The notes under the pieces are model-generated. The model searched no databases. It worked only from the letters and a program-made list of their open reading frames with translations, and was not told the origin of the DNA. The translations under genes were made by a program, and so were the position numbers. This document shows, piece by piece, positions 7,991 through 33,104 of a stretch of 41,882 nt of DNA (position 1 is its first letter; every line of letters starts with the position of its first letter). The stretch is from Perkinsus olseni (lineage: Eukaryota). The DNA lies in the NCBI GenBank assembly GCA_013115125.1, contig JABANN010000293.1, positions 1 to 41,882 of the forward strand, in the 5' to 3' direction.

Positions 7991-10900
7991 TCACTCAAAG
8001 GCCATGTAGACCAGGCTCCCTTTCACCGAGTTACTGCTTCTCAACAACGCCCCTCTAGTACGGGCCTCATAGACAGAAGTCGGCCACTCGATAGTCTCAG
8101 CGTTCTCAATCACCGCAAAGGCACCACGACGGCAGAGGCCTCGGCAGCACCAGACCGAACACTCTGGAGCTAACACGACAAACCACGTGTCACCCCAAGA
8201 CGCTGCCACCTGAATGGCTGCCGTATTCTCGACAGGCAGAATAACGCTTGTCGGCAAGTCGAAGTTGAAGGCTTCTGGAGGGCCGCCAGCGTGAGCCCGC
8301 ATGACGGTACCCCAGACGAAGACCTCACCGACGTCTGTGACGGCCAGCACGTAAACGGCACCGGCCGCCACCGATACCTGGACTACACGACCCGCTGCCC
8401 TTGCATCGCCAAGCTGCACCTTGCCAGGCACCCGAGCAAGCGACGAGTCCTCTATTGGCCTTCCAAGTTGCTTGCAAGTGTTGTCCCCCCAGGAAAAAAG
8501 CTCGCCCTTGCCAGTGAGGACAAAGACGCAGGGCTTGAGGAGACGCCGTGAGGTGTCTTCGAATACTGACAGTGTTATCCTCGCGATGATCGCAGTATCA
8601 CCGAAGTCTGCGAGATCAGCGCACTCAGACTCGGTACACTGGCCGATCACATGGACCCTGGATGGCCTCCGTTTGGTAACGTAGGCCGACGTCTTCCCGG
8701 AAGCGGCTATCAGTTTGACTCTGCCGTCGCAGCCTCTGACAGGTATCGCCAACGGCGTTCTCAGGAAAGCGACTGCATCTTGCGGCAGACCGCACTGTCC
8801 CATCGAGTTGGAACCCCAAGCGAAACAGAGCTCCGTTTCATTGCAGGTAAATAGGATATGCTGAGACCCGCAGGCAACAGTCTTCACGCTGAGGGCCTCG
8901 AGCCTCGGTGGAGGGGGTACTAGATGGCCAGACACCCACAGCCAGCCATCTTTCACGGCTACAACGTGCTTGCAGCGCGATCCGAAGATATGCAAATCGC
9001 AACCTTCGCTCCGCTCGTAGCTATCGAACGTCCGCCTTAGTGTCTCCTCGACGTTCTCTGGCGCGTGAATGATACAAATGTCGCGACCAAGGACAGTGGG
9101 GGATACCCGATGGGTGATGCTGCGGTTTGACCATTCGCTGGCGCGAAGCTGCCTCTCCATCTCAGCAAGCTCTGCTCGGGCTCGGAAGTGACGTTGTAAA
9201 TGGATAACCGTTCGTCTGATCGAGACCCACCAGCGGCGCCACGAAGTCGTCCTCATGGCATCTTGTATCACGCGTGTGGCCTCGGTCAAAGCACGAAAGT
9301 GACGGACCTGTCTGTGGCTCCGCCATCGAGTTTGGATTCTGCGCGCTGACCGAGTCCGGTGGACTTCCTCCCAGATGTCTCCCCGAGCTGCAGCCAGGTA
9401 ATCGTACACCCGTTTGCCTGTCCCTGATCGAACCACCCTCGTCGCAGTACCCCGCCACCACGCTGACAGCCGCACTTGAGCGTCGTGCATCGCTATAAGC
9501 TTGGCCTTGATTATCAAGGCGAGCCATGGGAGACCTCCCCGAACCCTCCCCCACCAGCGTCTAACAAGGACCCCACGCCAGTACGCCTGTACGACCACTG
9601 CCGCTCTTTCGGCTCTCAGTCTGTACGCCCTACTGAGCAACGTGAGCTGCGCCAAGTAGCGTCTGACGAAGCACTGGACGATCTCAACAGAATACACTCT
9701 CGTGCGCTTCAACCTGAGTTCATCGACCAACTTGACCGCAGCTAGTCTTCGGTAGAAGGCTTGAAGGACAATCGCGGCCCGGATTCGTCTAAGCTGCATG
9801 ATGTAGCCGGCATACTTCATCCGTGTGCGCTTCTGACGCCAAACCCGTTGAATGTGTACAACAGCCGCGTGGCGCTTTGAGAACTCGTTGACTCGGCGGA
9901 GCAGGCAGAGCGCTCCGAAGAGACAGTTGAGGGCTCTGGGAACTCTGTCGAGGCTCTCTTTCCGTTCGAGCCAACTCCTGTACAACGACTGTATTTGCAC
10001 CACCTTCCTCACAGCTTTGGCGGCGTATTGACGAGTCATGCAAGATTTCAGTATGCGCTCACATCGCTCTTTCTTCGACCTCGGGGCCATCAGAGCCGCT
10101 TCGTGCTTCAGCAGACTACCGATCGCGCCCATGCCGATGCGTAAGGAACCCTTACGGATGTCCAGACCACCGGGAGGCACTCCAATCGTAGCTGAGAGCT
10201 CCTCCAGAATCTCTGTCTCGCTCGACGCCTTCAAGGCAAGCCGCTCGCGGGCCTCGACAATGTCGATGTGGAAAGGCTTCATCATTGGGTTCACGCGGGT
10301 AGCTGCGATGGTCGAGAAAAGCCACAGCTGGTGAGCCATTTCAAGAGGGTCTTTCTCGTCCCTCGTTACGACTATCAAATGTGCCCCCACACCAGATTCT
10401 CTGACACTCTCGACACTCTCCTTGGCTGCGTCCAACCAGTCCTGGCCTACTTGCTCATCGGCCGCAGCTTGACATATATCTCTCACCAGCCTCACCGATG
10501 AGCCTTGGAATAGATCTAGAACACGCTCGTTCCCCGTGGTCGGTAATCTGATGTGCTCACAGGCCCTGTGGAAGCGTTCATCGATGTAGTCAGCAGCACG
10601 TGTACAGCGCGCGATCCGGAGGGCCTCTCGGGTAAGCAGCAAATCGCCGTAGCTACCATAGCTGTCCCGACGGTCAGCGGGGCAGGCAACTATGATGGTA
10701 CCGTCGCCGTTTTCGTCGGATACCTCCAGGCTGGCCGCCCAGCAGAGTAAGCCTCGCTGAAGTACATGCACGAACTCAATGGAGCTGACTTGCTTGTCGA
10801 GAGGATCTTCAATACCCAGAAGATCGCAGATGAGTTCGTCAGGGCGGATGCATAACGCGGAAGAGATTGAAGAGCTCTGAACCAGCAGCATGAGCGCACA

Positions 10901-11818
10901 GCATACACGCATGAAGGCGTCGACGTCGATGTCAAGTGCAGCCAGCGCTTTGCCAAGATCTCTCAGCTTCTTCGGATCGCTGATGACAGGCCATGACAGC
11001 CCCGGTGTGGATAGCAGCCCCCTGACCCTGTGAAACGCTGAAGGTTCAGTGGACCCGGTGGTGAAGTCCATCAGGTAAGAGTAGGCGTATCCTAGTAGGA
11101 GACTGACATAAGCCTCGTCGGCATTGGATGTGAGTGGGAAGGCCTCTACAGAGTAGCTGCCGTTGAGGAAGAGGGCAGCATGGCACCTCGCACTGCAATC
11201 CGTTGCGACGAGGGAAGTGAGCAGACAAGCTGACCGGAGCCTCTCGTCCTCAGACCCTCGAGATGAGCTTCTTGCCATAGCGCTCCAGGTAGCAGCCAAG
11301 TCACCTCCACCGACAATCCACACCACATGCGCTGAGCTCTCGAGGTCGACATCCTCAACCTTCTGCCGATGGCCGATGCTGCCCGAGGAGCCGCCCAGCA
11401 CCTCCCCCAGCGGGCTCCGGCTGCTGACCAGGCTCACTCGCATCTTAGGCGGGACATCAGCCGTGCAAATCCTGGGCAGGCGTGCCATCACAGTGGCTGT
11501 CACGGTCCCCCTGTGTAGTGGTAGACCCGCTTCCCGGATGCTGTAGGAGACATCCGAGTGCTCTTGGGCTAGGCGAGAGGGCTCCAGCGGGTACAGCTTG
11601 CTCGTCGGCACTATGATCATGTCTTCCGGGCCACCGCCTCCTAGGTGCACTACTGCTTCGGCGTCTCGTCTGTTCGGCGCCACACGGAGACTTGTAACCG
11701 TGCCGTGTACGAAGGTGGGGAAGGGCGAAGGCTCCTCCTCACCCGTGTCACGGACAACGAGCACTTCTTGCCCGACCAGATTAGAGGGGGGCTTCGGCGT
11801 TGACAAGCCGACTGTCAT
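7991..11818 (-). CDS. Myosin-derived protein: SH3-like N-terminus, degenerate motor domain, ~9 IQ motifs, RCC1/ATS1-like tail (MyoH-like architecture), intronless
   Basis: IQ motifs such as IQSLYRSWLER, IQRVWRQKRTR, VQAYWRGVLVR, IQTRWRSHRQV. RCC1 repeats VACGSQHILF..FAWGSNSMGQCG, LFSWGDNTCKQLGR, GEVFVWG. N-terminal VGQEVLV..GTVTSL..VPTSKLYP resembles the myosin SH3-like domain. First in-frame ATG at 11818. Confidence 0.75.
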   Translation of the reverse strand: MTVGLSTPKPPSNLVGQEVLVVRDTGEEEPSPFPTFVHGTVTSLRVAPNRRDAEAVVHLGGGGPEDMIIVPTSKLYPLEPSRLAQEHSDVSYSIREAGLPLHRGTVTATVMARLPRICTADVPPKMRVSLVSSRSPLGEVLGGSSGSIGHRQKVEDVDLESSAHVVWIVGGGDLAATWSAMARSSSRGSEDERLRSACLLTSLVATDCSARCHAALFLNGSYSVEAFPLTSNADEAYVSLLLGYAYSYLMDFTTGSTEPSAFHRVRGLLSTPGLSWPVISDPKKLRDLGKALAALDIDVDAFMRVCCALMLLVQSSSISSALCIRPDELICDLLGIEDPLDKQVSSIEFVHVLQRGLLCWAASLEVSDENGDGTIIVACPADRRDSYGSYGDLLLTREALRIARCTRAADYIDERFHRACEHIRLPTTGNERVLDLFQGSSVRLVRDICQAAADEQVGQDWLDAAKESVESVRESGVGAHLIVVTRDEKDPLEMAHQLWLFSTIAATRVNPMMKPFHIDIVEARERLALKASSETEILEELSATIGVPPGGLDIRKGSLRIGMGAIGSLLKHEAALMAPRSKKERCERILKSCMTRQYAAKAVRKVVQIQSLYRSWLERKESLDRVPRALNCLFGALCLLRRVNEFSKRHAAVVHIQRVWRQKRTRMKYAGYIMQLRRIRAAIVLQAFYRRLAAVKLVDELRLKRTRVYSVEIVQCFVRRYLAQLTLLSRAYRLRAERAAVVVQAYWRGVLVRRWWGRVRGGLPWLALIIKAKLIAMHDAQVRLSAWWRGTATRVVRSGTGKRVYDYLAAARGDIWEEVHRTRSARRIQTRWRSHRQVRHFRALTEATRVIQDAMRTTSWRRWWVSIRRTVIHLQRHFRARAELAEMERQLRASEWSNRSITHRVSPTVLGRDICIIHAPENVEETLRRTFDSYERSEGCDLHIFGSRCKHVVAVKDGWLWVSGHLVPPPPRLEALSVKTVACGSQHILFTCNETELCFAWGSNSMGQCGLPQDAVAFLRTPLAIPVRGCDGRVKLIAASGKTSAYVTKRRPSRVHVIGQCTESECADLADFGDTAIIARITLSVFEDTSRRLLKPCVFVLTGKGELFSWGDNTCKQLGRPIEDSSLARVPGKVQLGDARAAGRVVQVSVAAGAVYVLAVTDVGEVFVWGTVMRAHAGGPPEAFNFDLPTSVILPVENTAAIQVAASWGDTWFVVLAPECSVWCCRGLCRRGAFAVIENAETIEWPTSVYEARTRGALLRSSNSVKGSLVYMAFE

Positions 11819-12148
11819 CACAAACACTTTTGCAACTAAGGACACCAGTCAAGCCAACGCTATTTGCTTCATACTCAACGGAAGCCTGACACTGGCAGCT
11901 CTACTCTGCCGCATGCTGCCTCTCGCTATTCATATGCGAGCGTATGCCACCAGCCGTAAAGTGTCTTGCGTACTGGAGGGAAGACCCACGCTTCTCATTT
12001 AGAAATTGTGAATCAATGACCGCCGGTCATTGACCGGGCTGATTCTGTGATCCCCCCTGAGTGCGATAGTGAGTATAGCTCGGCCTTACGCCGGACCGAC
12101 CACTACAATTGACGAAACCGTTCAATAGAGTACTCTGAGAAACGTTGA

Positions 12149-13559
12149 CTATTCGGTGACGCTAGAGGGAGCGTTGTCCGTCCCTGTGCTGGATTTCTCC
12201 TTCCTGGCACTCTTCAGCTCAGCCACGGCCACTCGTTCGTCGAGCGTCGGCCCCTTCGCTCGCTGCATTATCGGGACGTACTTTCGGGCCTTCACCTCAC
12301 CGGTCCCTCCCGAGGACCCTGCTAGACACTGAAGCACCGCCAAATCCCTCTGAGCCGCCACCGCCGCTCGGGAGAACATCGCGACTGCTTCCTGGTCCTC
12401 GACAGCGTTTTGATCGAACCAATCAACGTCATACTCGCAATCGAATAGCACCAAACCAGCGCCATCAGCCAAGTCGTAGCTGGGCTTGCCAGGGGTCTTC
12501 TCAATGTCCAGGAGAGCATCAATAACCTCAGGCGGCTCCAGGCCTCTGCCTATGAGCATGAGGACCTCCATCATGCATCGAACCTGGTGCCATAGGAACG
12601 CGCTCCCTGTGATGACCGCATGGGAAATGACACCACCATCGCGAAGGTCGAACGAATGAATAGTCCTCTCGAAGTTGACGGTCTGCTCCACGTCCATCCT
12701 ACAGAAGTTGCGGTAGTCGTGCTGCCCAATCAGTCTCTGAGCAGCCCTGGACATCATTCCAAGGTCCAAGCCTTCCGAGGGGAAGAAATACTTGTAAGTG
12801 CGACTTTTGGAGCTGAACCGTGCGTCGAAGTCGTCGTTCGGCACCGAACAGACCCGCAAGATCCGGATATCCTCGGGAAGCACTCGGTTTATCATCTGGA
12901 CGTAGGGGAACTCGGTACCTGATGAAGCCATCGTTCCGACTAGTTCACGCAGGGGCGAACACGATACCGAGGACCTCTGATACTGATATACCATGAGACT
13001 ACAAGTTGTGGTAAGTTGGGCTACGTACTGTCTCCCATTAACCAATTCCTGTCATACTATTGCTTCACTACTTACCTACCACATTCACCCTGGTTGCGTT
13101 CAACAGAGACACTCGAGACAATTGCTACATTGAAGTCGCACGTTTCCGGAGACTCAGGAATCTGCTCACCATCTGGTTTCACACGCAGCCGCAGTGTAGC
13201 ATAGTTGCCTCTGGCATGGACCCCTTTGTCGGTTCGACCACACCGAGAGAAGTCGCAAGATGTACGGGACTCTATCAGGCAGGTCTTGACTAGAGCTTTG
13301 AAGAGCTCATTCTCCACCGTATTGACGCCAAACTCCTCCTGATTCTGCCAGGCTACTCCAGCGTACCTGAACAGCCACCAGCACGGCCACATGCAGAGAG
13401 CCTCTAGCACCTAGCCGAGGGCGCCCACCTAGTCCCGATGTAGGCAAATTTCAACAGGAAGCGGCCCGTCTTGGCCGTGGCCCAGTCTATCCCTCGAGGA
13501 GCCTTCCGTCGCTTCTTGCTCTTGGGCTCGGAAGAGCTGCTCGGCGGGGTGGAGGACAT
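12149..13559 (-). CDS. PUS3: TruA-family tRNA pseudouridine(38/39) synthase (Pus3/Deg1-like), spliced
   Basis: LKFAYIGTR|YAGVAWQ, TVENELFKAL, FSRCGRTDKGVHARGN (catalytic Asp present), FDARFSSKSRTYKY, GQHDYRNFC, GSAFLWHQVRCM. Intron 13367-13428; a second intron ends at 12919. Confidence 0.92.
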
Positions 13560-13661
13560 GACGCAACTCTGCTAGCATTGCCAATGGACCAAGGGAAAGC
13601 CGACAAACGCAACCTAACCAACTTCGAAAATACATCCGAAACATGTCCAACAGTCGGCGCA

Positions 13662-15176
13662 TCACTCAGGGATCCGCAGCGCCTGGTCATCTCTCTCCAT
13701 ATCGATCTGGGGTGGGGGCTCCTCCCCTATCGCCAGAGAGTGCCGAGCTTGATCGAAGATCGACACGAACTCGCCGGTGATCGGATTCACCAGTGTACCT
13801 AGGAGATTATTCAGGCGACTTCTACATAGCAGTGACTCAATTTCAAAAGTTCAAATTTTGACTACCAACAGTCGTGACTGCCCAACTTTCTACTAGCAAG
13901 CGTCCCTCCCAGGTACCCGCTCACCTTTAGCAGCCATGATGGCATCCCTCGCTATCCTCCGCGGTGCTAGATGCCTCACATGGGGACTCACTGGCTGGGG
14001 GCAGATGTAATCAACGTAAGCAGTGCTCGATCTGTAGGGCCCGAACGATGCCGAGTTGACCTTAGTTACCTGAAGCACGCGGTAGCGGCTGTCGGAGCCA
14101 CAAGGGAGGGCTCTGCCTTACCCGGAGTTTGTATGTGTCTCTGAATAGCTTCACCAAGCTCTTCTCATTAGTCATCACTAGTCGGACTCTCAGCCACGTC
14201 ACCTCCTCGCTCGGCCGCTTGTCTATACCAACGAAGACCTGTTCGCCATCTAGAGGTGTGAGCAGCGACGGCTGGGCGCGCGTACTTGTCCGTAATCGAC
14301 ACTGCCCACTTGAACGCCTTCTTTTCGCCTCCAGCTCCGGAAGCGGTCCTCGGGTAATCTGCCTTTCACACGAACCAGAAAAACACCTGTGAAGCGCAAA
14401 GGGCGTCAAAAACCTAGAAACTGCCAATCCTTCAACCCACTGAGGACTTTGCTGCGGGGGTGAGCCATATTGTGGGCAAACTCGCCATCATTAGTGAGGA
14501 CAACCAGGCCGGAACACATGACTGGGATGGGGTTAATTACGATGAAGTGTGGTGGTATCAAGTCGACGTTGTTGATGTTATGGCTGAGTTCGTGTGCCTG
14601 GGGGAAGCCCACAGATGGGGCGGCACCCAGGAAGGCCGACTCACCCGACGCTTGTACCATATCTCGAATAAATCAGGCAAGGCTGTAAGGCCGCGTATCC
14701 GTGTCGCACTACAGACGACGCCTCGAGGTTTGTTGATGAGCCAAACCTTCGGATCCCTGAACAGAAGCTCATCACGCGGCCGCCTCCTGCAGACAGAGCC
14801 CACCCCGGTGGCTCCACTGGTTGATCTCGGCAGATGACATCGCAATGGTCAGACACTTGCACGTTATGGCGGACAACTTGGCCGTCAACGACAACTTCGC
14901 CATTCCTTATGGCCGCTTCCGCCTGACGACCAAGAAATCGGAACTCAAGCGAGGAAGAGATCCATCCACCTGGGAGCGCGACATCTGGCCAGACAGAGAT
15001 ATCCTTCGAGCGAGCCATTCAAAGCTAGTGGTCATCTTCTGTAGTGTACGGCAAGCTATCCGAGGGACGTCCTCGGCGGTCATCACTCGAGGGGCCACCT
15101 TTCCAGCAGAGCAGCGAGAAGCGGCCGAGGTGAGCAAACCCTCACCGGCGTGGATGAGGGCCCGACTGCCGCTCAT
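13662..15176 (-). CDS. S4-domain RsuA/RluB-family pseudouridine synthase homolog lacking the catalytic motif, multi-exon
   Basis: WLARRISLSGQMSRSQ|AEAAIRNGEVVVDG (S4), WLINKPRGVVCS, SGLVVLTNDGEFAHNMAHP, FLVRVKG, TWLRVRL, FGPY. The GRLD position reads NPIP. The last exon ends ..LRIPE* at 13662. Confidence 0.8.
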
Positions 15177-15295
15177 AAATTACAAAAAACCAACCCGAGG
15201 AAGGTTGTGATGAGAGTATCCCCAAACCAGTACCCGAAAGGCCTACACAAATTCGAACGGAGTCCAGGAAACAATGGCGGAAACAGAATGGCATG

Positions 15296-16318
15296 TCAGA
15301 TCGTACTGGCTGCATTGTCATGGCCTCTTGTCACATTCACTCGGCACGAATTAGTCCATGTACTGGTATGCTTGTATCGTTCAAACAGGGCGATCGCTAA
15401 GGCATAGCTCACGTTGAAGCTGTGATGAGTACCCTCCGCGGTGGGTATCTGTAGAGAAGGGCACTCGGGAAACGATGAAAGCAGCAGAGCCAGCAGCGAC
15501 CGGCATATCTAGAACAAAGCCTTGGGATCAGGTCTTGCAATAAGCAACAGGCCCGTCCCGCGAATATCCTTCCCATGCAACTCACGCTAAGAACGGCATC
15601 GGCGACTCCGAGGACGGCGTCCGAGACACCGTCGGCCTCTCCACCAGCTACCATCAGCAGGTGAGAACTTCTCAAATAACATGAGTCCGAGGACGCGGCA
15701 GTGAGATCAATCCACTGCAGCTGAACGACGGGCACGTCCAACGCAAGCGGCGAGGAAACCAACCATCGTACATACACCCCGAGAGATGGCCTCTTCCTTG
15801 TTCTCTAACGCACACACGACGAAGTCATGGTCCTTCCTTAAAGCATCGATGAGTTCTATCGGGTCCGTTGTAGTGAATATTCTCGGGCCACTGAGCGTAC
15901 TGTAGTGAGAGTAGTTCAAGGCAAGTTGGAGGAGGTCCCTGAACGACTGTACGAGTCCACTCCCGCAAGGGTCCGCTGAAGACACCGGAAGATATCCCCT
16001 CCATGGATAGGACGACGCGAGATAACGGAGAGATGATGCAGAAAATACAGGCCGTTCACTCACTCTGTGACGGCGCCCTCGCCCAAAATCAAGGCTCCTG
16101 CCCCGAAGCTCGAGCTGTATCGGAGGACCCTTGCTACGTTGCCTGGGTACCTACCCCTCATGCCACTTGACTAGGCCGCAAGCAGGTAGTGGGACTCACT
16201 GCACTCCATCAAGCATGACCAGCGTGTGGGCCTTTGCACTTGCCCTACCGCCGCTCGCTACAAAGTCAATGACGCTATTCAAGCGGGATGCTCGCAGGAT
16301 ACGCTGACGCTGGAGCAT
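15296..16318 (-). CDS. SpoU/TrmH-family RNA methyltransferase, paralog A (motifs intact)
   Basis: Spliced HTLVMLDGVQ|YPGNVARVLRYSSSFG (motif 1), MVAGGEADGVS (motif 2), IPTAEGTHHSFNVSYALAIALFERY (motif 3). Arg-rich N-terminus MLQRQRILRASR. Confidence 0.82.
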
Positions 16319-16450
16319 CCAACCCTGGGGAAAGCTGCATGGCCATGCTGTACCTAGACAACCGAGCAAAGGAGCCGGCCTCCTGTATCATGCCTTTCTA
16401 TCACTTCCCTTCAGCCTGGATACGACCCGTCTAGCAACACTAGGCAGATC

Positions 16451-17443
16451 TCAACACAAGAAACTAGACTCGAACTGGTCATCGGAAACGTCCCCATGCT
16501 TCCCCATTCTCTGCCGTATCCTCTCTTCCCGCAGAGCCCGCAACTCTGCGTCCGGCAGCGGTGGTAGAGGGCTAGGGCGAGGCCAATCCTTAGTGAATCG
16601 GTACCGCTCGAACATAGCCAAGGTCATCGCACTGCACACATTGTAGCTGTGATGGTGGTCGAACACAGTGGGGATCTGAGAACTCGAGCCACGTACGCCA
16701 CGAGCCATCCTCAAGGACAGTACGACATCTCTCTTCAGCCAGGGCGGAACGAAACTCACGCTCAGGATTGCATCAGCTTCCCTCGGGATGAGTGGGCCAA
16801 CGCCTTCCAACTCTCCGCCACCAACGAACAGCACTCGTGGCGATGATATCTCCTTGCCGGCCGACGCGTCGCAGCTGAGGTCGATGAAGGGCAACTAAGA
16901 GGGGTTGCTGAGTGACGAGGACAGACAAAGGCGACTGTAGGGCACCCTTACGTCGTGTTGGACGGCCACTTCCTTATTCTCGAGGACAATCACGCGGTAG
17001 CCATACTCCTCGCGCAAGCGCTGCATCGTCCCCGCACAGTCGACGTTCAATACTAGAGGTATCCCACCACGACGAACAGTATGGGACGAGCAGAGAGCCG
17101 ACAAGGCGAAGTCCCTATCAAAGCAAATTGCTTCCCGCCTAGACCTCGAGGATTACCGTTGGTACAAGTGGGACCCCCTAGAGTCGGCAAGCAGCAGTGC
17201 AGAGCATCCCAACTTGCCGGCATTGGCCAGCACGTTGCCGACATTGCCTGGATACCTGCGGGCCGAATCTTGCCCTCTGCCACTCAATGCCTCCAAGACT
17301 CACTTGACACCATCGAGGAGCATCAACGTATGCGGTGGGATCTTAACTTCGAGTACTTCCACCACACTCTGATGCAAGAAAGAAGCGGCCAGCAAGCAAA
17401 GATTCCTCGTTGGATTTGGGCGTGAGAAGCCGCATCCGAGCAT
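16451..17443 (-). CDS. SpoU-family paralog B (motif-1 Arg replaced by Ala)
   Basis: HTLMLLDGVK|YPGNVGNVLANAGKLG, FVGGGELEGVG, IPTVFDHHHSYNVCSAMTLAMFERYRFTKDWPRP. Introns at positions equivalent to paralog A. Confidence 0.82.
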
Positions 17444-17530
17444 GAAAGACTGCACACAAATCCGCGCCCTTGCGCCACAGCCATGCCCGTACTCAGACTC
17501 CGCCACGTTGTTGTGTCAGAAACATGCTTC

Positions 17531-18932
17531 TCAAGTAACGGCTGCCGAGAACTGACCGCTATCTGCTTCAGGCACGTGTGAGTTCGGATACCTCAGGGCC
17601 GTCGGCGGGCACGCAGGAGGCCTCGGCCAGTCTTTCGTGAGCTTGTAACGCTGAAGCATTGCTGCAGTGAGACTGTGATTGACACCAAGCTCGATCGGCA
17701 CCTACGAGGAGGACCTTGTGCAATCAGGCTGATTGAATCAGCCTGCAAGAGTAGTCCAGTCGCCAGTTACAATCGACACTCAGAGAGTCAGCGCTTTCTG
17801 TATCAAGAAGCGAGTGGGGGAAGGCATATGCCCTCTAGACGACTAGATTCTGACTCTATGGAAAATTTACTACGATCGTATTGTTATTTCCGATTTCTCC
17901 GGCCGTCTCGAACACGCTATCACAAAGCTCGGCCACCCGTACATTCGACGAAAATTCTCCCTTAAGACGAAACTCGAGGCCAGAAAGTAAAAATTTCACT
18001 GTGCAATGGGTGGATTGGTTTCCGAAAGTGTGGAGTGATCCCTGCATGAAAGCATGGCCCGTTAGTGGAGCGAAGCGTCGCCGCGTTCCAGGGCTTACCC
18101 GCATATAGAAATGCGCCTTCTCCCCGAGAGTGTCACCGGCAACACATTGAGGGCCATCTACGACCATAAGCAACAGTTGACTGCCCATCCAAGCAGAGTC
18201 TTGTACACCGCTGCTCAGGTCTACCGTTGGTAGGAGCACCTGCAACACATCCCGATCGAGCAAAGCCGTGCAAGAAAGTCCAATCGATGCGCGGTAGACG
18301 CAGGGATGTGCAGACGACAGGCTCACAAGGTGCACAGATGCCCGAGTGATTTCCAAGATTGTGAAAGAACTCACGCGGTCGCTGGTGTCGTCGGAACACA
18401 ACGACCCTATGGTGTAGCCGTAGGAATCAGACAATACGGTAGCGACCTCAGTAGACTCCACACCAGCAAGCACATGTGGTCCCCCGAAACAGTAAGCCAT
18501 CGAGTGCCTCAAGCAGGTCTTCACGAAGGACCTGAAGAGCCACATTCACCAATCTTCGCCCCAGCTTCACGAGAACGACCGCCTACTGTGTGTAAATAAA
18601 CCCCCTAGTGGTTCCAAGGATAACAGCAGAAGCTCCCAGCAAGTGACAATTCCGTATCACGCTGGCCACAACGCCTGGGTTCCTGACAGAGCTCAGTACA
18701 GTGCGGCACCTGTGGTAGAGGCAGACACCTACTCTATGTCGTTGAGTAGGATCAACGTATGCGGAGAGATTCCGGATTCGCCGCCATGCACGATCTCAGA
18801 CAGGGATGCACTAGTGTACTTGTCGGTCCACACCGAGAACAGCCGCCGCCGGGCGTACGACTTGGCCGCTATGCTACCGAGACGTCGAAGAAGTATTATC
18901 GATATGACAGGCGGAAAGCAACAGATCCTCAT
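17531..18932 (-). CDS. SpoU-family paralog C (Arg retained, SAM-knot motifs 2 and 3 degenerate)
   Basis: HTLILLNDIE|NPGVVASVIRNCHLLG and LMVVDGPQCVAG. Intron 17702-18098 leads to the last exon VPIELGVNHSLTAAMLQRYKLTKDWPRP (17531-17701), which is not in the ORF track. Confidence 0.72.
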
Positions 18933-19019
18933 CGATTTATCCACTCCTCATCAACTCAGTCCCTCTCGCAGCAGTAGCAGAAACCACGCATGAAACGAAG
19001 GACATGGTGGGACGAGGCA

Positions 19020-19992
19020 TCAGGCAGACACGCAGGTCGGGGGAATAGCAGACGGTCTAGGCCAATGCCTCGTCACTTTGAACCTCTCGAAGAGAGCAAT
19101 CGTCACGGCACAGCTGATGTTATAGCTGAACTGCGCGCTGGGCAAGGTCGGAACCTGAAGGAGACGACCAAGCACGATAGAGATGAATTCTGCCATGGTG
19201 GATATCACATCCCACAAAACGTCAGCTCGGCCGACTAGCTCGTCCCCCGGCCGCTGAGCCTCCCCGCCACTGATGAAAAGCAACCTATGGGCCTCCATGA
19301 ACTCGCTACTCGACGCCAGCCGACACAGGTCGTAACGGCGGGCCTGAGAACCGCTGTGAGTGGTGTGACTGCATCACAAAGAGGGCCTCAGGTTCCGAAA
19401 CACTCTGCTACCTGCGAGCTGCTATCAGTGAGAGAACCGTCCCCAAGGACTGCTATTGTATACCCAAAGTGCGTCTTGAGCTCATCAACGGCTTCAATTA
19501 GGTTGCAGGTCGGGACTACGGGGCAGCCTCCGCGCTTGTAACACATCGACATCCGCAGTGCAGATCTCATCCATGAACTACGCAACGACGGAGTGGATGG
19601 GAGAGATGCTCTGGACCCTACTTCGATTGGTGTCGGTCACTGTTTTGGGAGCTGCTGCCGAACAGTACACCGGAAACTCCAAGGAGGTAACTGTGTCTCA
19701 ATATACTGGCCGCGTTGCTAGAGAACCTATCGAACTTCTATGATGCGTCATAGGCGATAGCGTGATAGTTCCGGTTAACAAACACATGCCGGCTGCGAAG
19801 GAAGAGCAACACACCCACGTGTCCGATCGAGAGCTCCACCAATGAATACTGTATCGAGTCAGCCATGACCAGAGTGTGCGGCGCAGGTCCTTCTCTAGCG
19901 AGGATGCTGCCTAGGGAGGGATACAGAAAAGGGGCACTCCACGTAGCAAAGCTCCTCCTCAATAACGCACTAGCATTTACTGGAAGAAGCAT
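19020..19992 (-). CDS. SpoU-family paralog D
   Basis: MLLPVNASALLRRSFATW (presequence-like), HTLVMADSIQ|FSSNAASILRHSYLLG, FISGGEAQRPG, VPTLPSAQFSYNISCAVTIALFERFKVTRHWPRP. Confidence 0.8.
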
Positions 19993-20234
19993 GAACTACA
20001 GTCGAACAATCGATCGCACATCCCAGAGCGCAACCCGCGCTACCGTGATGAACCAAGAGCCTATCATCGACGAGGAAAAGTCTAGATTCATGGTGAAAGT
20101 AAGGTTACAGCCTTAGCGAAGGCCGCGAGAAAAATCAACTTGTGGCCCACGATTCATCCAGGCCATACTTGTCGGGAGAATGAATGGTATAACACTTGAA
20201 AGCAACTCCATAATGCGCGTCATAACAACCAGCG

Positions 20235-22111
20235 CTAGTCGTTGAACTCCATCAGCTGCGCGCCGTAGTTCTCCATGATGTTGTGATACATCGCCTCCCC
20301 AGTGTCCACCTCACCACCATGCTGGTCGAACGTACTCAAGAGAATCTGAAACAGCACAGAGTGACGATTGCGAGACACCGCACCGTCAAGAACCCTAAAA
20401 GATACTTTCTCTATGAGTGCTTGCTCACGATTTCTCATCCCGGGCGCTAAGCAGTTCACTCGAGTCAAAAATGACGTTGCGCTGAGAGCTCACACGCCAG
20501 GAACACCACCAAGGAAAGGATGCTGTCGAGTTTTCGCGGTCGCGGGCAAGTACGTAAGTGCTCTTCCCTAGGCCGACCTCCTCCGGCCACGGCGCATTCA
20601 GCCATCGCCAGTACCCCGCTCTGAGCTCGCCGTGGAGCTGGCCAGGCGCCCACCGAGCGCAGCCATCGAATATGATTGCGCGCGCTCCTTCCTCATCGTG
20701 TTGCTCCGGCTGCTGCTGGGCGCTAGCAGCGAGGACAGCAGGGAGATCTCCGCCGAGGTACACAACATTGCCTTGATCTTGCGAGAGAACCACTCGAGCC
20801 CCCACAACACCTCGCGCTTTGTGCATAATCTGACATCCTGATATCACAACTACGACCTCAACGAGGGACCAGTGGCCCTCAGACCTCGGGTAGACTCACC
20901 CGCCGCTCCTCGTTGATGCGCACTGGCCCTCCCCGAACTGTTAGCAACTCTCCAGGAAGCACAACTCCATCGTCTTGAGAGGCAGCAGCAACCATCGACC
21001 TCGCCACGGGCTTGTTGAGAATCAGTGCTAGTGAGCCGAGATGATCGTGCTCCAGGACGAGCGTGACGCTCCGAAAGAAAATGGACCCCGGTCCGACTGC
21101 CAACGGGACAGCAAGCTCCACCACATATCGGGAGCTAAGCGCTCGACAGCCCAGTCAATGATGATCTCTGAGTGCTCAATGGCAGACGCTTCGCACTAGA
21201 AGTGCCCAACAGGTGAATCACGAATCACTAGGGAGTCCGGTGATTCAGAGCGCAGACTGGCTGACTCACTTATGTTGTCGTTGGCGATGAGCAGGGCTCC
21301 CTTGTGGAAGTTGGCCACCGGGGCACCGTGGCGTATGAGGGCTACCCGGAAGCCACCATCGTCATCATGCGTGACCACTGGGCGGATGCCGAGTGAGTGC
21401 AGGGAAGCACAAACGGCGATTGCCATCGCTGCACATAGTATGGGGCATCTGAGGAGCGCAGAGACGCGACCTACCACTACCAGTATGGAGGAACTCACCT
21501 GTAAGCCAGCACGAGCATCACAGCCACGACAGCTACGATGATCAGGGATCGATTCAAGAATATCGCGAAGGTGATGGTGACTAATATCAACATCATGTCC
21601 TTCACCAGCGCCCACAGTCTCTCCAACAACGGCCGATCGGGAGGATCCAGAGCGAACCTCCCCTGAATAGCAGACAGAGATCATAAACTCGTCCGCAAGG
21701 TTCTCACTACCTGACACACGCTGCAGGTCGTCGCTTTCTCACTTGCGAAGTCACCGGCACCGAGGACTTGCATTGCCCGCTGCCAGCGTTGCAGACAGGA
21801 TACATGCACCCACTGAGAATACAACCACAGACTGGGCGGCACACACTTTCCGGTCCTATGGACGCAGTCGATATCGATGGTGCAGACGCACTCCTACGAA
21901 CCTTCTGTGATCCCTTGCACATACAAGGGGCGATCAGCTCATTGCCTTTGGTTTCGCCAGGGCTGAAGCATATCCGACAGAACAGCTCCGTGGACTCGTC
22001 GCTGCTGCTGCTGATGTCACTTTCCGCTCGAACAGCAGTACCACGGCTTCCCTGCTCGTCCACGTCGTTGCGCTCGGATCCACCGCGGTGTTTCAGGGAT
22101 GAATGGCTCAT
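20235..22111 (-). CDS. RING-CH (RINGv/MARCH-type) E3 ligase with TM segment fused to a DUF179 (YqgE/AlgH) domain, multi-exon
   Basis: CRICF..LIAPCMCKGSQK|WVHVSCLQRW..CSVC, then a hydrophobic stretch, then GALLIA..FFRSVTLVLEHDHLGSLALILNKP..GGPV..IFDGCARWAPGQLHGELRAGYW. Confidence 0.8.
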
Positions 22112-22599
22112 GATAATAACAGAACTAACAGGGTGAACCCGTGCAGGCTCGACCTGACTAGAGCACCCCAGGGAATCTACGCATCGACTTCGAGATGCGA
22201 GGCACCGCGGTCATTCAGCTGCTGCCAGTATACAGCGTTCTCATAAGGGCGAGCGGAACTTCGATGAGGCGGACGAAAACCGAATGCCAGCACTGCGACT
22301 CATGCGGTACGCTGCCATCAACGCAACAGGTGTGGCAAGCACTGGTGGAAAAAAGGAGGAAAGAGGAGAAATGATACCTCAATTATTACGCGCTTCAGCG
22401 CAATGCGGTCCCGCGCACCACAGGGAGAATAGGAAAAAGCGAGCCGACGACGCATGATGAGAGCTCAGTAGCAGTAGAGTACGAAATACCAGTCAGAGAG
22501 AGACGGCAGACCATCACAGAAGCGAATCGGGCGCAATGGTTCAAGCAGATTGAATAGTCGATGAAGAGAAACCCCACCACCCTGAGTATCCGAGAACCT

Positions 22600-23609
22600 T
22601 CAAAGACAGCGATGAGATGATGCATATATGAGGCTGGGGGAGACGGCACATGGTCGCGAAATTGGACCGGTTGAGAAGGGTCCAAACAGTTTGAATGGTC
22701 GAGAGCGAAGAATTCGGGCACTCTGAGAACCTGAGCATGTCTGGAGAGTGAATAGCGCAGGTATGTGGTGATCAGCGACGGACAAGGCCATCATGCTCAT
22801 TGAGAAACCCCGATGCAGAGGGACTCCACAAGAGCCACCATGATCACCGCATCACGTCGCATGGTTCACACGCGACTACGGCCTGATAATAGGACGGTGT
22901 AAGGGAGCGCAAAAGCCCATTGCAATATCGAGGTAGTGAAACGCTGGTTAGTTAAGGACATCTGAAAGTGGAGAAACTCGCCGCAAGGCACGAGACTGGC
23001 AACGCCGTATCTCACCTATGAGCCAGCACGAGCACGCAAAAACTAGGACGATCAAGGACAAATGCAGCACTACCGCCAAGATAGCCGCTGACCAGGTAAA
23101 CAGGATGCCCTTTAGCGGCATCCACAGCCTGTCCAGATAAGGCAGCTCAGGAGGGGCCAGAGCGAGTTTACCCTGGAAAGTGAACAAAATCGAGAAACTC
23201 CAATACCATCACGACCACTACCTGGCACACGTTGCAGGTCGTCGCTTTCTCGCTGGCGAGGTCTCCACATCCACCGATTATCTGCATTGCCCTTTGCCAA
23301 CTTTGAAGACATGATACATGTACCCACTGAGAATGCAACCACAGACTGGGCGGTACAGTATTGGCGATGTGAATAACGCGAAGTCAAGAGACTTCAACGA
23401 ACCTTCTGAGTTCCCTTGCACATACAAGGGGCGATCAGCTCATTCCCTTTTGTCTCTCTGGAACCGAAGCATATCCGACAGATCAACTCCTCGCACTCAT
23501 CGATGCTGACCGATTCACTGTCTGCCAGAAGAGCCGTCCCACGGCTCCCCAGATCCTCTCTGATGTTACGTTCGGTAGGAACTCTGTGCTTGGCAATCGG
23601 ATGGTTCAT
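22600..23609 (-). CDS. RING-CH membrane protein, tandem paralog without recognisable DUF179 (3' end uncertain)
   Basis: CRICFGSRETKGNELIAPCMCKGTQK|WVHVSCLQSWQR..CNVCQ|GKLALAPP..TM. Same first two introns as the 22111 gene. Confidence 0.7.
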
Positions 23610-23884
23610 AAGAGCAACATCAAACTACAATGCGGGGGCTACCGATAAGTGGCTGCATCAGATTCGTCAACCTGGGATACTTCAGATGGCAACGAGGGCC
23701 ATCTGTCCACCATTGACCAGCCATACACTGGTTCCCAGCCTGCGCAACAGCCAGTTTGGCATTGCAGAAAATAATTATCCCTAATTTTACCAGAATCAAG
23801 GACCCACAGGGTACCCCCGGAATGGTATACGATATGATGACACTCGTCAGCCTCGGCAGAGGAAATCGAGCCCGATACGATCCA

Positions 23885-26800
23885 TCAAACGTTGGCAGCC
23901 GGAAGGATAGCGCCGTCTCGATCACCTCCCTCGGGCGAGCCTCCTTCAGACCGCTGTGGTCTCGCCCGGCGCCTTACAGCTGCGTGAGACGAGCCCTGCT
24001 TGCTCACTAGGACGTCGGGCATCTGACCTATACTGCCCGTCACGGACATTAATTTAGCAGGAGAACGGTAGAGAGTGACCACTTCGTAGTACAGGACCCT
24101 CTCGGCCTCCAGTGAGTGCCTCATCCGGGCAATTTGAACTCCTTGGCAGAGTTGAAGAGGATACGTGACGGACGGCAGCTCTTCGAACATTATACGTTTG
24201 CTGCTGTCCTGAATGACTAGCCTGAAGAAGCGGCCAATAGTGAGCACCACACCCAAGTAGAGACCGATCACGCTGAGACTCGACGACGCCGATGCACCTC
24301 CTCCAGCACTCGGCGGCACTGCTCTCTCGCTGACCAACGCCAGTGTAGGGTTGTCCGCCATAGCCCACCACACCTGGGAGTCCTCCTTCTCAACCTTGAG
24401 CGACACGTTGTTGAACTGACGGAACGACCCCGGAGGGCTCGCCCATGGACCGTTCAAGTACAAGGCCCTCGGGATGAGGCCTCCAATATGCAGGCGACTG
24501 CCGTTGACCAAGGACATCGCATCCAAGAGCTGCTGCGCAGGTTGGACCGACTGCACACAGTGGTAGCCAGAGGACCTCACACTGCCAGGCTGGGAGTGAC
24601 CGAACTCCCATGTCACGCAGAAGGTAGCATTGACCTCCCCGCTCGGAGTCTGGTTGGCCTGAATATAGTCTCTGATTTGCCGGCGTAGTGGAGGGCTTGG
24701 CTGCCACAGCACATCAGCCGCCTTTGGGAGAGTAGCATTTTGGAGGTCAGCGCTATGCATTGCCGTGTAGGACACCAGCTCTTCGGGCATCAGAGGGTAC
24801 TCCGACGACTGCGGGACGCGGAGGCCGACATGATCGGTCTTCCACACGGGAATGGACAGTTCCCCTACCTTCAAAGAGATGGCCATGGACGCGCTGGTGA
24901 CCATGTTGGATTCCCTTAACAAGTTCAGGCCCGAGAAGAACGTCAGTGGGCCGGTGATAACGAAGACCAGGAAGGCAAGGACACTGCCTCCTAGCAAGAA
25001 CCGGTACTTGGGACTCGTCTGCCGCTCAATCGCAGCTCGACCTGCGATGTCGTAGTGGACTAAGTAGAGATTCTGCCAGGCATCTTCCAGCTTGAACCAC
25101 ATGAACAGCGACAGTGCCGTCCCTCTCGAGCTGGCAAAGTCACAGATGACTCTGAGCTCGTCCAGGAAGGGGATGACCCGATAGACGCGGTAGGTGTAGT
25201 AGGAGAACCAGGCACCATTGCTTGGGGGGATGGGCTTGGTCGGGTCATTAGGGTCCCTCGTCGGCGGGATTGACCCCAACCACACCAGGCCAGGGTGCGA
25301 TACCCTGATCGCGAAGTGCAGCTGGATGCCAGTAAGGACCAGGTAGCCGGTGAAGGGCATCACAACCCTCAATGGGACTGTGCGGATGTAGACACAACCG
25401 GCCAGCATCAGGACCACCTGCGCCCAGAGGATGAGCTTCTCGGTGAGGACATGGCGGCCAAAACTGTAGCCATCGACTGAGGTCGACAACCGCGAGTAGA
25501 TATAGCGATCGACCAGCACGCGGACAATCAGGCCAACTATCGCGAGGACTTGGACAGTTGAAAACCGGTTGTTCCTCACACTCTCTGCGAAGCCCGTCTC
25601 GAGCTTATCGGTAGAAGCTGACGAGATTGCCGACCAGTCGAAAATGATGAGGAATATCACCACAAGGCTGAAGGCGAAACGTGGAATGAACAAGTCCAAG
25701 GACGGCCTCCGCAGTGATGCCGCATGGCCGCTAGCTCCCTCAGAATCTTGCTCGCTGCTCTCTGGACGACCTTCGGGGTCCTCGGGTCTTCGCAGTATCA
25801 CCTTCGCCTGGGCCGGAGTCATGTCCGTGCCACGACCAGACAACCGCTTGTGGATTAGATGCAGCGCCACGAGCACTACTATGCCAAGGTCCCACCCGAC
25901 ATAGCGGAGCAAGGCAGCGTCCTCATAGTCGGAGACTTTGAACAGACCCAGACGAGACAACGGGGTCACAACGCCGTAGGTGGGAGGACACTCCCAACGA
26001 CTCTCGACGATAGAGGGAACGTAACCGTCCGTGTCGCACACGTGAGGCATCTGCATCACCAGCTTGAGTGAGAGGCTACCCAGGCCACAGAGGCCAACCA
26101 CGATCCACGGCGTAGCGGTGAGGAACGGGTAGGCCGCAGGGATGAGCCAGCAGAGCATGATGCCCAGGGGGATGACCGAGAGAATAGACGCATCATAGGC
26201 TACCGCCTGAGAGAAGAGGGCGATGGCAACCCATATGGCTGTGTGGGACAAGAGGAACTGCAGAGTAGAGGGCAACTTGGCAGACACCGGGTGGGCCTTC
26301 AGAGCGGGGTCAATGACGTTGTAGTTGAAGCTGTGGAGAAGGGAACTGATGATGTTGACCCTTTTGTGGCGTCTCCCTCCCTGACTGCCATCCACGCTGG
26401 CCCGAGGCAGATTCACATTCTGGCCGCCGAGCACCATAGTAACACCGTCAATCACAGCATCGGTCGTCTGGGCCACCGCGCCAGTGACATTCTCAGCCGC
26501 CATGATAGACCGGCGGCTACGATGAGCAGCTTCTGTACTCGAACTGCTTGGGGTCACTTGCCCACTAGGCTGCCCAGCCGACTGTGCTTGGTCGTTCCCC
26601 GCCAGCTCCTCCTTCGCCTTAGCGAGGATGTCGTCTCGCTTCTCTTGGATCTCAGCCTCCGAGCTGCCTGTGACCACTAGGCGCTTGAGCACCGTGCTGA
26701 TGATGAACTCTGCGGGAGTGTCATTTGGCAGTGCCTCGCTGACTTCGGTCAAGTCAGCCTTCACTTGAACCACCGACATCCCCAAGTAGAGAGCGATCTC

Positions 26801-30223: not shown

Positions 30224-30245
30224 GATGCCATCGCAACAGCAGAAC

Positions 30246-30866
30246 TCACTTGCCCTTGATAATTTGACGATAGGCCAAGGTGAGCCTCTCCCGCATATTC
30301 TGATCTATGTGGGGCCCCGGACCCGCTCGATGCATCTCAACATGTTTCACCAACTAAAAGCACCGCCGTGGGGCGAGAAAGCCGGAAGCAGTCCGCTACT
30401 ACCTGAAGGCTCCGGTACCAGCCCAGGCCTGAGTTCCGCTTAACTTCCATTCGGAATTGCTTCTTCACATCCAATAGCATCCCCTGCTGTTCCTCTAACC
30501 TCCGCTGGGCTACCCCCGCTCGCCGCGCCTCAATACGAGCTTGCCTAGAGGCTTTCTGTCCACAAAGCAACAATGTGGACAAGCGAGAAAATCACCATAC
30601 CACCAGCAGCTTGGAACGGTCGAAAAATTCACCCTCCGGTGAGACTATATTCTGGGTAGTCCAACGCTCGCGGGGCTACTTTAGGTTTACGACATACGGA
30701 CTGCTATTGCCACTAAGAATGAGCCCTTCAGTACCTTCCTCGTCCCAAAAACCCGTATCGGCTTGACCTTGAAGTACGAGGCAGCAGTTCGGATGGACCC
30801 CAGCGGCCGCCACAGCAGCCCTCCCGAAAAATACGGTTGCCATCCACCGAGACTTTGCAATAACAT
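30246..30866 (-). CDS. Small basic presequence-bearing protein resembling the N-terminal half of ribosomal protein uS13 (putative mitochondrial), 4 exons
   Basis: Hand-spliced MLLQSLGG..RTAASYFKVKPIRVFGTRK|NIVSPEGEFFDRSKLLV|KASRQ..DVKKQFRMEVKRNSGLGWYRSLQ|LVKHVEMH..IDQNMRERLTLAYRQIIKGK*. The GLG..RS helix pattern recalls uS13 (IYGIGxxRS). Confidence 0.42.
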
Positions 30867-32409: not shown

Positions 32410-33104
32410 CAGCCAGTTCGAGTTTTCGACCCGGCTACCAGAAGTCGTTACGGTACGCGTTCGTAAAGGACTTTACACGAATTCCGATGTTCCGGGAAAT
32501 GCGGCGATAGTTGACTAGCTGTGCTTGAAAGAGTACTACCATCATCCATCCGACAACGCCTTGAAGCCAGCACCGGCTGTGAAGGTCGGGGGCATCGGCC
32601 AGCTTAAGGCTGGCTGTATCCATTGCGGGAAAAGAGGCCTATTGTAACCTAGCGGCTGATCGTGATTGCGCCAGCTCCAACCGAGTTGAGGAACTGCAAG
32701 ATTGCAAGAATCAATTACTCGATGTGTCGCGCGCCACGAAATTCCCTGGAACGCTAACTTTACTGTGTCGAATGAGAAACAGCATCCATCGCTGAGCTAG
32801 CACAGCTCCCCGAATACTAGCAGTGCACGGACGGTGACGAGAGGGCTTCTCCTAGCGATCAGTGGTCTTGACAGGTCATCAGAAGTGGTGCGTTCTTTCA
32901 CAGCCATCGAGGTTGTTGACGCTGGCTATGCTGTTAGCTGAGGAAGACGTTCCTTGGGGAAGTTTTGACAAAGGGATTTGCTAGTCCAGTGCGGATCTTC
33001 GCCTTGCCAAGCCGAGGCGCGTCGTGGAAGTTACGTTACCTCGGAGGAAGTGCAAATTGGGGAGCTTCACAAATTCCGTCCTGTGTAGTTTTGGTCTTAT
33101 CAAC
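32410..33104. promoter_or_regulatory. Divergent strand-switch region between the minus-strand and plus-strand gene blocks
   Basis: All credible genes from 4.5-32.4 kb are minus and all from 33.1 kb on are plus. Promoter function is inferred only. Confidence 0.4.

What the first reader, a model, noticed from the sequence alone, without database searches (positions are those of the whole stretch)
16451..18932. Adjacent SpoU paralogs with complementary active-site lesions: possible split (heterodimeric) methyltransferase
Seen: B keeps SAM-knot motifs 2 and 3 (GGGELEG; SYNVCSA), but motif 1 reads GNVGNVLANA with Ala at the conserved Arg. C keeps the Arg (VASVIRNC) but motif 2 is DGPQCVAG, and motif 3 lacks about six residues including the Asn (NHSL-TAAM). 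Known: in TrmH/SpoU dimers the motif-1 Arg of one subunit completes the active site at the SAM pocket of the other. Inference: B and C would each be inactive as homodimers but could form one active site together.
Basis: partly seen in the sequence, partly recalled or inferred. Interest (0 to 1): 0.72.

Follow-up and report, generated by a model that had tools for sequence, protein, structure and literature searches.

The report
Split methyltransferase pair in Perkinsus
Two neighbouring, expressed genes of the shellfish parasite Perkinsus each encode half of an RNA-methylating enzyme's active site, one the methyl-donor pocket and the other the catalytic arginine, so they probably work only as a pair, although binding and activity are untested.

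Summary
The window holds four tandem SpoU paralogs (A-D) of Perkinsus olseni with four shared intron positions. RNA contigs show all eight introns of B and C, including 17702-18098, spliced in frame. Of the five residues essential in TrmH, B keeps four and lacks only the trans-acting Arg (Ala57; Ser in P. marinus). C keeps only that Arg and has also lost the motif-1 Asn. These positions are 99-100% conserved in 141 homologs (Ser 92%). B's SAM-binding half is 87% identical to P. marinus, and C still folds as a SPOUT domain with a knot loop six residues shorter. A half-site heterodimer is the best reading (0.6); B with C specifically is about 0.4, because A and D keep all five residues and could partner either. 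Binding, activity, substrate and location are not shown. C's motifs are known from P. olseni only. SPOUT heterodimers are known (trypanosome mt-LAF5/6, yeast Upa1-Upa2); I found no report of a reciprocally split active one. My look-ups found no earlier scan note of this on other DNA.

The parts
16451..17443 (-). Paralog B CDS, 5 exons (17443-17304, 17255-17157, 17114-16952, 16894-16760, 16675-16451), 253 aa; proposed SAM-binding subunit
   Evidence: joints; translation; Pfam SpoU_methylase for the P. marinus ortholog P0003, E 3.6e-9
17225..17227 (-). B Ala57 codon, at the position of the catalytic Arg (TrmH Arg41)
   Evidence: Ser in P0003, aligned to the RlmB Arg
16802..16822 (-). B motif 2, GGGELEG, intact
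16628..16648 (-). B motif 3, SYNVCSA, intact
17450..17451 (-). AG acceptor 6 nt before B's ATG; a contig end here carries 4 non-genomic letters that fit the end of the Perkinsus spliced leader (weak on its own)
   Evidence: table 7; leader sequence from PMC9399869; context
17531..18932 (-). Paralog C CDS, 5 exons (18932-18733, 18682-18587, 18531-18375, 18239-18099, 17701-17531), 254 aa; proposed Arg-donor, RNA-binding subunit
   Evidence: joints; translation; SPOUT fold
18652..18672 (-). C motif 1: Val71 in place of the invariant Asn, Arg77 kept
18141..18158 (-). C degenerate motif 2, DGPQCV (Gly, Glu and Gly all lost)
17672..17701 (-). C degenerate motif 3, knot loop about 6 residues short, Ser and Asn lost
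17702..18098 (-). C intron 4, 397 nt, GT..AG
   Evidence: joint in 3 of 4 runs, ends checked
15296..16318 (-). Paralog A; all five essential residues present in the in-frame model, but the splice form seen in RNA contigs is out of frame at intron 3
   Evidence: (P0008)
19020..19992 (-). Paralog D, 227 aa; all five essential residues kept, last Gly of motif 2 is Arg in both species
   Evidence: two of its four introns rest on depth or length arithmetic
19996..19997 (-). AG acceptor before D's ATG; a contig end here carries 9 non-genomic letters matching the spliced-leader end
   Evidence: table 7

Best explanation
A single SpoU gene was duplicated in tandem in the Perkinsus lineage. A SpoU homodimer has two composite active sites, each made of the SAM pocket of one subunit and the motif-1 Arg of the other. 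B kept the SAM side and lost the Arg; C kept the Arg, the fold and the dimer helices and lost the SAM side. They most likely work as half-site subunits of a heterodimeric RNA 2'-O-methyltransferase with one active site: B binds SAM, C binds the RNA and supplies Arg77. B with C is the likeliest pair (about 0.4 of the 0.6); the rest is B or C paired with intact A or D. Shown: gene structures, expression, motif states, conservation of B across species, fold. Inferred: association, activity, a mitochondrial location, and a tRNA-like substrate.
For: (1) The loss pattern follows the published cis/trans division: Arg in trans, motif-1 Asn and motif-3 Ser/Asn on the SAM side (PMC12123411; PMC5372735). 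Within one 7-residue motif B keeps Asn and loses Arg, while C loses Asn and keeps Arg. If one of five residues were lost in B and one of five kept in C at random, both being the Arg is about 1 in 25 (my arithmetic, post hoc). (2) B's SAM-binding half is 65 of 75 identical to P. marinus, against 46 of 76 for D, so the pocket is under strong selection in a protein without the Arg. (3) C is spliced in frame in RNA contigs, is 195 of 210 identical to its copy in another P. olseni assembly, like A, B and D at 92-93%, and models as a SPOUT domain (pLDDT 86, Z 17.3 to RlmB, rmsd 3.1, 169 aligned). (4) C has the longest stem (1.11 against 0.69-0.87) but ordinary tips (0.048, 0.031), as expected for fast change followed by constraint. 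(5) The first exon of C is kept in a Logan-derived fragment that I take to be P. marinus, 28 of 46 identical (P0030); its longest contig has the same length, 12283, as that of a P. marinus-type B fragment.
Against: A and D keep all five essential residues, so complete enzymes and other partners exist in the same cluster. The state of C's motifs is known only from P. olseni. Between P. olseni assemblies, translated intron stretches look about as alike as exons (by eye), so the 93% does not prove selection on C. Known SPOUT heterodimers are described as scaffolds or as wholly inactive. B has a Lys one helical turn after Ala57 in both species, which might stand in for the Arg. The tree does not resolve the order of duplication: B+C is neither shown nor rejected (p-AU 0.146).
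Confidence: 0.6

Rival explanations
1. B and C are pseudo-enzymes with a structural role, alone or as a dead heterodimer, for example in assembling the fragmented-rRNA mitoribosome. A or D do any methylation.
For: Precedents: trypanosome MRM (mt-LAF5) has a closed SAM site and scaffolds assembly (PMC7957421); yeast Upa1-Upa2 is an inactive SPOUT heterodimer (PMC13015370). C keeps only 8 of 22 conserved columns. The Arg also binds RNA phosphate, so it could be kept for binding alone.
Against: A scaffold role does not explain why B keeps every SAM-side residue at 87% identity across species and loses only the one trans residue.
Confidence: 0.2
2. B is active as a homodimer by another route (Lys61 or no general base), and C is an unrelated non-catalytic subunit or regulator.
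For: Lys61 is present in both species at Arg+4; 1 of 141 homologs also lacks the Arg while keeping the rest (P0054).
Against: Substituting the Arg nearly abolishes TrmH and strongly impairs RlmR; the exact complement in the adjacent gene would be a coincidence.
Confidence: 0.12
3. C is a decaying duplicate that is still transcribed; the kept Arg is chance.
For: C has lost the most conserved columns (14 of 22); its C-terminal half could not be found outside P. olseni; dN/dS was not computed.
Against: Intact frame over 5 exons in two assemblies, in-frame splicing, confident fold, exon 1 kept at 61% in the putative P. marinus fragment although an intron of B shows no likeness between the species.
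Confidence: 0.05
4. C and B are one gene making a fused pseudo-dimer, as several public gene models have it (P0157, P0007, P0158).
For: C's last exon and B's first exon lie in the same frame, 87 nt apart with two TGA stops; one contig of run X19 runs unspliced across both.
Against: No fusion joint among the 15 of 25 joints shown; X19 depth in the two bins fits only the unspliced contig; in X1 contig ends fall at 17514 (C 3' end) and 17451 (leader-like, B 5' end). The public models disagree with each other.
Confidence: 0.03

Closest known systems
SpoU/TrmH family RNA 2'-O-methyltransferases (Pfam PF00588; TrmH, RlmB 1gz0, RlmR 9h1k/9muj)
   Same: SPOUT fold (B Z 20.2, rmsd 2.0, 158 aligned to RlmB; C Z 17.3), three motifs, and the published two-subunit active site.
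   Different: These are homodimers in which each chain carries both halves. B and C each carry one half. A-D show no separate substrate-binding domain of the RlmB type, and no NCBIfam model reaches its cut-off.
Trypanosoma brucei mt-LAF5/mt-LAF6 SpoU heterodimer (6yxx, 6yxy; MRM in 7aoi)
   Same: Natural heterodimer of two SpoU paralogs in a protist mitochondrion; one subunit has a closed SAM site and a disrupted motif.
   Different: Longer proteins (586 and 373 aa) in the RlmB/MRM line; read as a scaffold or docking site. Whether mt-LAF6 lacks the Arg I could not see: the primary paper is not held. A related Leishmania structure was described as a homodimer.
Yeast Upa1-Upa2 SPOUT heterodimer
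   Same: Paralogous SPOUT proteins that turned from homodimer to heterodimer with distinct roles.
   Different: SPOUT1 family; neither subunit appears to bind SAM, so the pair is inactive. B keeps a full SAM pocket.
Active-plus-inactive paralog enzymes (Trm61/Trm6, Tad2/Tad3, METTL3/METTL14, trypanosome PRMT1)
   Same: Duplication followed by division of labour between subunits.
   Different: Other folds; there one subunit holds the catalytic site (for Trm61/Trm6 and Tad2/Tad3 this detail is recalled), whereas here each would give part of one site.
Unnamed myzozoan SpoU subfamily (squirmids Digyalum and Platyproteum; dinoflagellates Biecheleria, Effrenium, Polarella)
   Same: Nearest relatives of A-D by profile search and tree.
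   Different: The members retrieved keep Asn, Arg, Glu and Asn; the split was seen only in Perkinsus.

Membership tests
SpoU/TrmH family (PF00588) | SPOUT alpha/beta fold | tested here: met
   Models of B and C match RlmB, NHR, AviRb and TrmH at Z 15-20; the knot itself was not traced in coordinates
SpoU/TrmH family (PF00588) | Pfam SpoU_methylase score over cut-off | tested here: inconclusive
   B ortholog P0003 37.3 bits, over 29.7; partial C proteins 16.6-16.8 bits, under it
SpoU/TrmH family (PF00588) | Motif-1 Arg (TrmH Arg41) in B | tested here: not met
   Ala57 in P. olseni, Ser in P. marinus
SpoU/TrmH family (PF00588) | SAM-side residues (TrmH Asn35, Glu124, Ser150, Asn152) in B | tested here: met
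   N51, E162, S189, N191 in both species
SpoU/TrmH family (PF00588) | Motif-1 Arg in C | tested here: met
   Arg77 in two P. olseni assemblies
SpoU/TrmH family (PF00588) | SAM-side residues in C | tested here: not met
   V71, P181 and a shortened motif 3
SpoU/TrmH family (PF00588) | Dimer with composite active site; 2'-O-methyl transfer to RNA | not testable with these tools
RlmB/MRM1/MRM3-type rRNA methyltransferases | N-terminal RNA-binding domain (SpoU_sub_bind type) and family-model score | tested here: not met
   No such Pfam domain in P0003; TIGR00186 18-47 bits against a cut-off of 160
TrmH (tRNA Gm18) orthologs | Family-model score and G18 specificity | tested here: inconclusive
   NF008295 19.7 bits for A against 227; specificity cannot be tested
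Mitochondrial matrix proteins | Cleavable presequence and presence in mitochondria | tested here: inconclusive
   First 30 residues hold 2-7 Arg/Lys and 0-1 Asp/Glu; no predictor was run; orthologs not found in the complexome tables, where no SpoU protein appears at all

The most novel reading that the evidence does not exclude
B is an obligate SAM-binding subunit and C an obligate Arg-donor subunit of an active, reciprocally split SpoU enzyme. B may also swap partners (C, D, A) to change substrate, since the Arg-donor subunit is the RNA-binding one. The complex would 2'-O-methylate imported tRNAs or rRNA fragments in the Perkinsus mitochondrion, whose genes are all read through programmed frameshifts.
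Probability: 0.3. Interest if true: 0.82.

Novelty: new variant of a known kind. Interest (0 to 1): 0.62.

Why it matters
If right, this is a natural version of the experiment that defines SpoU catalysis: one subunit for SAM, one for the Arg and the RNA. It would give a clean test of the half-site mechanism and a clear case of a homodimer turning into an obligate heterodimer by complementary loss. A mitochondrial role would add candidate factors for the unexplained frameshifting translation of Perkinsus mitochondria. It also shows that public gene models fuse these genes wrongly.

Tried and rejected
Complex prediction (A, B, C, D together, C scored) was not available, so there is no model of any pair. 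dN/dS was not computed: no ortholog DNA could be fetched; a metagenome scan with P0003 found 204 pattern matches, none confirmed, and a second scan gave no answer. No full-length C outside P. olseni came from three word-based searches and one profile search; the word-based ones cover limited lengths and only the best 150 of 596 profile hits were listed. The P. marinus complexome supplements (PMC13623125) hold none of the locus tags or UniProt ids of the A, B and D orthologs that I searched and no 'SpoU' entry; file 1 is cut in storage and C has no id, so this says nothing for or against. No run was on record as RNA; spliced joints show that the laid contigs come from RNA. A fifth paralog in the window or genome: none found (lower bounds). 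A single four-domain gene: rejected (stops, leader-like ends). Order of duplication: unresolved. ESM Atlas added only 'SpoU'. The motif 2 and 3 columns were wrong because of the out-of-frame model of A and were redone. The mt-LAF5/6 motif states could not be displayed, and Jaskolowski et al. 2020 is not held.

Full report
Setting. The window is one whole contig of a 39.9 Mb eukaryotic assembly. Its proteins match Perkinsus olseni records at 92-100% and P. marinus records at 50-74%. Between 15296 and 19992 on the minus strand lie four SpoU-like genes, in the order D, C, B, A. In their in-frame models all four have five coding exons with introns at the same four positions (phases 2, 2, 0, 0), so they arose by tandem duplication. 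They form one clade (100/99) against the 15 nearest other proteins and against 49 others in a quick tree. Named nearest relatives come from squirmids and dinoflagellates.

Gene structure and expression. Contigs of four public runs from four studies were laid on 14500-21500 (15 of 25 joints were shown). All four introns of B and all four of C appear as joints, each in 3 or 4 of the 4 runs; 17702-18098 is seen in 3 of 4. The spliced frames give 253 aa (B) and 254 aa (C) without internal stops. Loose contig ends at 19997 (9 letters) and 17451 (4 letters) fit the 3' end of the Perkinsus spliced leader given in PMC9399869 (passages) and sit on AG acceptors just before the ATGs of D and B. This argues for separate mRNAs. 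Public models that fuse C to B, B to A, or all four (P0157, P0007, P0006, P0158) disagree with each other and are not supported by the joints shown, though a minor fused form is not excluded.

The lesions. I aligned 12 Perkinsus sequences with 141 homologs, namely the rows P0011-P0153 of the profile search minus two Perkinsus fragments. In the 141, the motif-1 Asn, motif-2 Gly and Glu and motif-3 Asn are invariant, the motif-1 Arg is 140 of 141, and the motif-3 Ser 130 of 141. This set was chosen by a profile and so leans towards intact motifs. B keeps N51, G160, E162, G165, S189 and N191 and has Ala57 for the Arg; the P. marinus ortholog has Ser there, aligned to the RlmB Arg. C keeps Arg77 and has V71, D179, P181, V184 and a shortened motif 3. 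B keeps 18 of 22 well-conserved columns, A 17, D 14, C 8; one homolog of 141 is B-like, none is C-like. A and D keep all five residues listed as essential for TrmH; D has Arg for the last Gly of motif 2 in both species.

Why this points to a split site. PMC5372735 (passages) lists Asn35, Arg41, Glu124, Ser150 and Asn152 as essential in TrmH and states that one subunit binds SAM while Arg41 comes from the other, tRNA-binding subunit. PMC12123411 (passages) shows in the RlmR-RNA structure the Arg acting in trans and the motif-1 Asn, motif-3 Ser and Asn acting from the SAM subunit; the motif-1 Asn also touches RNA in trans there. B has exactly the SAM-side four and C exactly the Arg. The split runs through a single motif, six residues apart. 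Under random loss the match is about 1 in 25 (my arithmetic, after the fact).

Are B and C under selection? B is: its SAM-binding half is 65 of 75 identical to P. marinus, above its own N-half (72 of 93) and D's C-half (46 of 76), while a translated intron of B shows no likeness between the species (by eye). For C the evidence is thinner. It is 195 of 210 identical to its copy in another P. olseni assembly, as are A, B and D at 92-93%, but introns are about as alike at that distance. A fragment that I take to be P. marinus C covers exon 1 only (28 of 46). C has the longest stem and ordinary tips in the tree. AlphaFold2 models, from alignments of 119 sequences, give C pLDDT 86 and B 89 (the C model uses the copy in P0158). 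Both match SPOUT enzymes best, RlmB first (Z 17.3 and 20.2). The loop before the C-terminal helix has 6 residues in C and 12 in B, so C keeps the scaffold and both dimer helices but not the SAM loop.

What is not shown. No complex prediction was available, so there is no evidence on which paralogs pair. A and D could serve as Arg donors for B or as SAM subunits for C. One oddity weakens A as the stand-alone enzyme in this strain: in 3 of 4 runs its third intron is spliced at 15771, 4 nt past the in-frame donor, which gives a stop after 128 residues; depth arithmetic fits only that form. Contigs drop minor forms, so an in-frame mRNA may exist, and the P. marinus ortholog appears to lack the alternative donor (inferred from P0155). 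The genome also holds at least two other SpoU genes. B has a Lys four residues after Ala57 in both species, a possible substitute that I could not test.

Location and substrate (inference). The first 30 residues of A-D hold 2-7 Arg/Lys and 0-1 Asp/Glu, like mitochondrial presequences (my own knowledge; no predictor was run). The orthologs were not found in the P. marinus complexome tables, but neither was any SpoU protein (PMC13623125, passages and supplement searches; one file is cut). A-D lack a separate RNA-binding domain, which PMC12155479 (passages) associates with tRNA-modifying SpoU enzymes. Perkinsus mitochondria encode no tRNAs and read all genes through frameshifts (PMC9550989, passages), so imported tRNAs or rRNA fragments are the natural candidates. 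This link is a lead only.

Comparison with what is known. SPOUT heterodimers exist. T. brucei mt-LAF5/mt-LAF6 is a SpoU heterodimer on the mitoribosome precursor (passages), and its MRM subunit has a closed SAM site and is read as a scaffold or docking site (PMC7957421, passages); Leishmania work calls the equivalent a homodimer (passages). Yeast Upa1-Upa2 is a heterodimer with no SAM binding (PMC13015370, passages), as foreseen in PMC1829167 (passages). I found no report of a reciprocally split, active SpoU pair in searches, and none on Perkinsus SpoU genes (0 papers). The library lacks most subscription papers, including the primary mt-LAF5/6 paper and its supplements, and I could not see whether mt-LAF6 lacks the Arg; if it does, the arrangement has a precedent. 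Look-ups in earlier scan notes by words and by sequence returned nothing; notes from the same genome gave context only.

Verdict. A half-site heterodimer is the best explanation (0.6; B with C about 0.4), against a non-catalytic scaffold (0.2), B active alone (0.12), decay of C (0.05) and a fused gene (0.03). New variant of a known kind; interest 0.62.

Noticed in passing
window 15721-15775 (paralog A, intron 3): RNA contigs of 3 of 4 runs use a donor at 15771, 4 nt past the in-frame donor at 15775, which gives a stop after 128 aa and removes motifs 2 and 3 from the only paralog with fully canonical motifs.
   Followed up: partly
   Followed up: partly
window 19155-19208 (paralog D, intron 4): An in-frame 54-nt intron without stops is spliced in X1 and X19 (by depth arithmetic) but retained in the X2 contig and in one public model.
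   Followed up: no
window 12149-15179: Directly downstream of the SpoU cluster lie a TruA-type pseudouridine synthase (Pfam E 5.7e-30) and a gene with a weak S4 domain that looks like an RsuA/RluB-type synthase (by eye); a TruD-type gene lies at about 36295-37129. The contig is rich in RNA-modification genes.
   Followed up: no
window 32985-37129: Acetate kinase and TruD genes lie here; in P. marinus the locus tags of the A ortholog fall between acetate kinase and TruD tags, suggesting loose synteny with rearrangement. No SpoU copy lies between them in this window.
   Followed up: partly
ends of B, C and D (16560-16590, 17610-17640, 19050-19075): B, C and D share a C-terminal WPRP motif after the last helix that A and the other homologs shown lack; a candidate for a hetero-oligomer contact.
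   Followed up: no
P0044 and neighbours in the tree: A Pithovirus rRNA methylase family protein falls near the same eukaryotic SpoU group.
   Followed up: no
window 23885-30304 and 7991-11848: Two very long intron-free frames: a Piezo-type channel (2139 aa) and an IQ plus RCC1 repeat protein (1285 aa), in an otherwise intron-rich contig.
   Followed up: no
window 21687-23650: Two similar RING-variant (MARCH-like) gene copies appear to lie in tandem.
   Followed up: no
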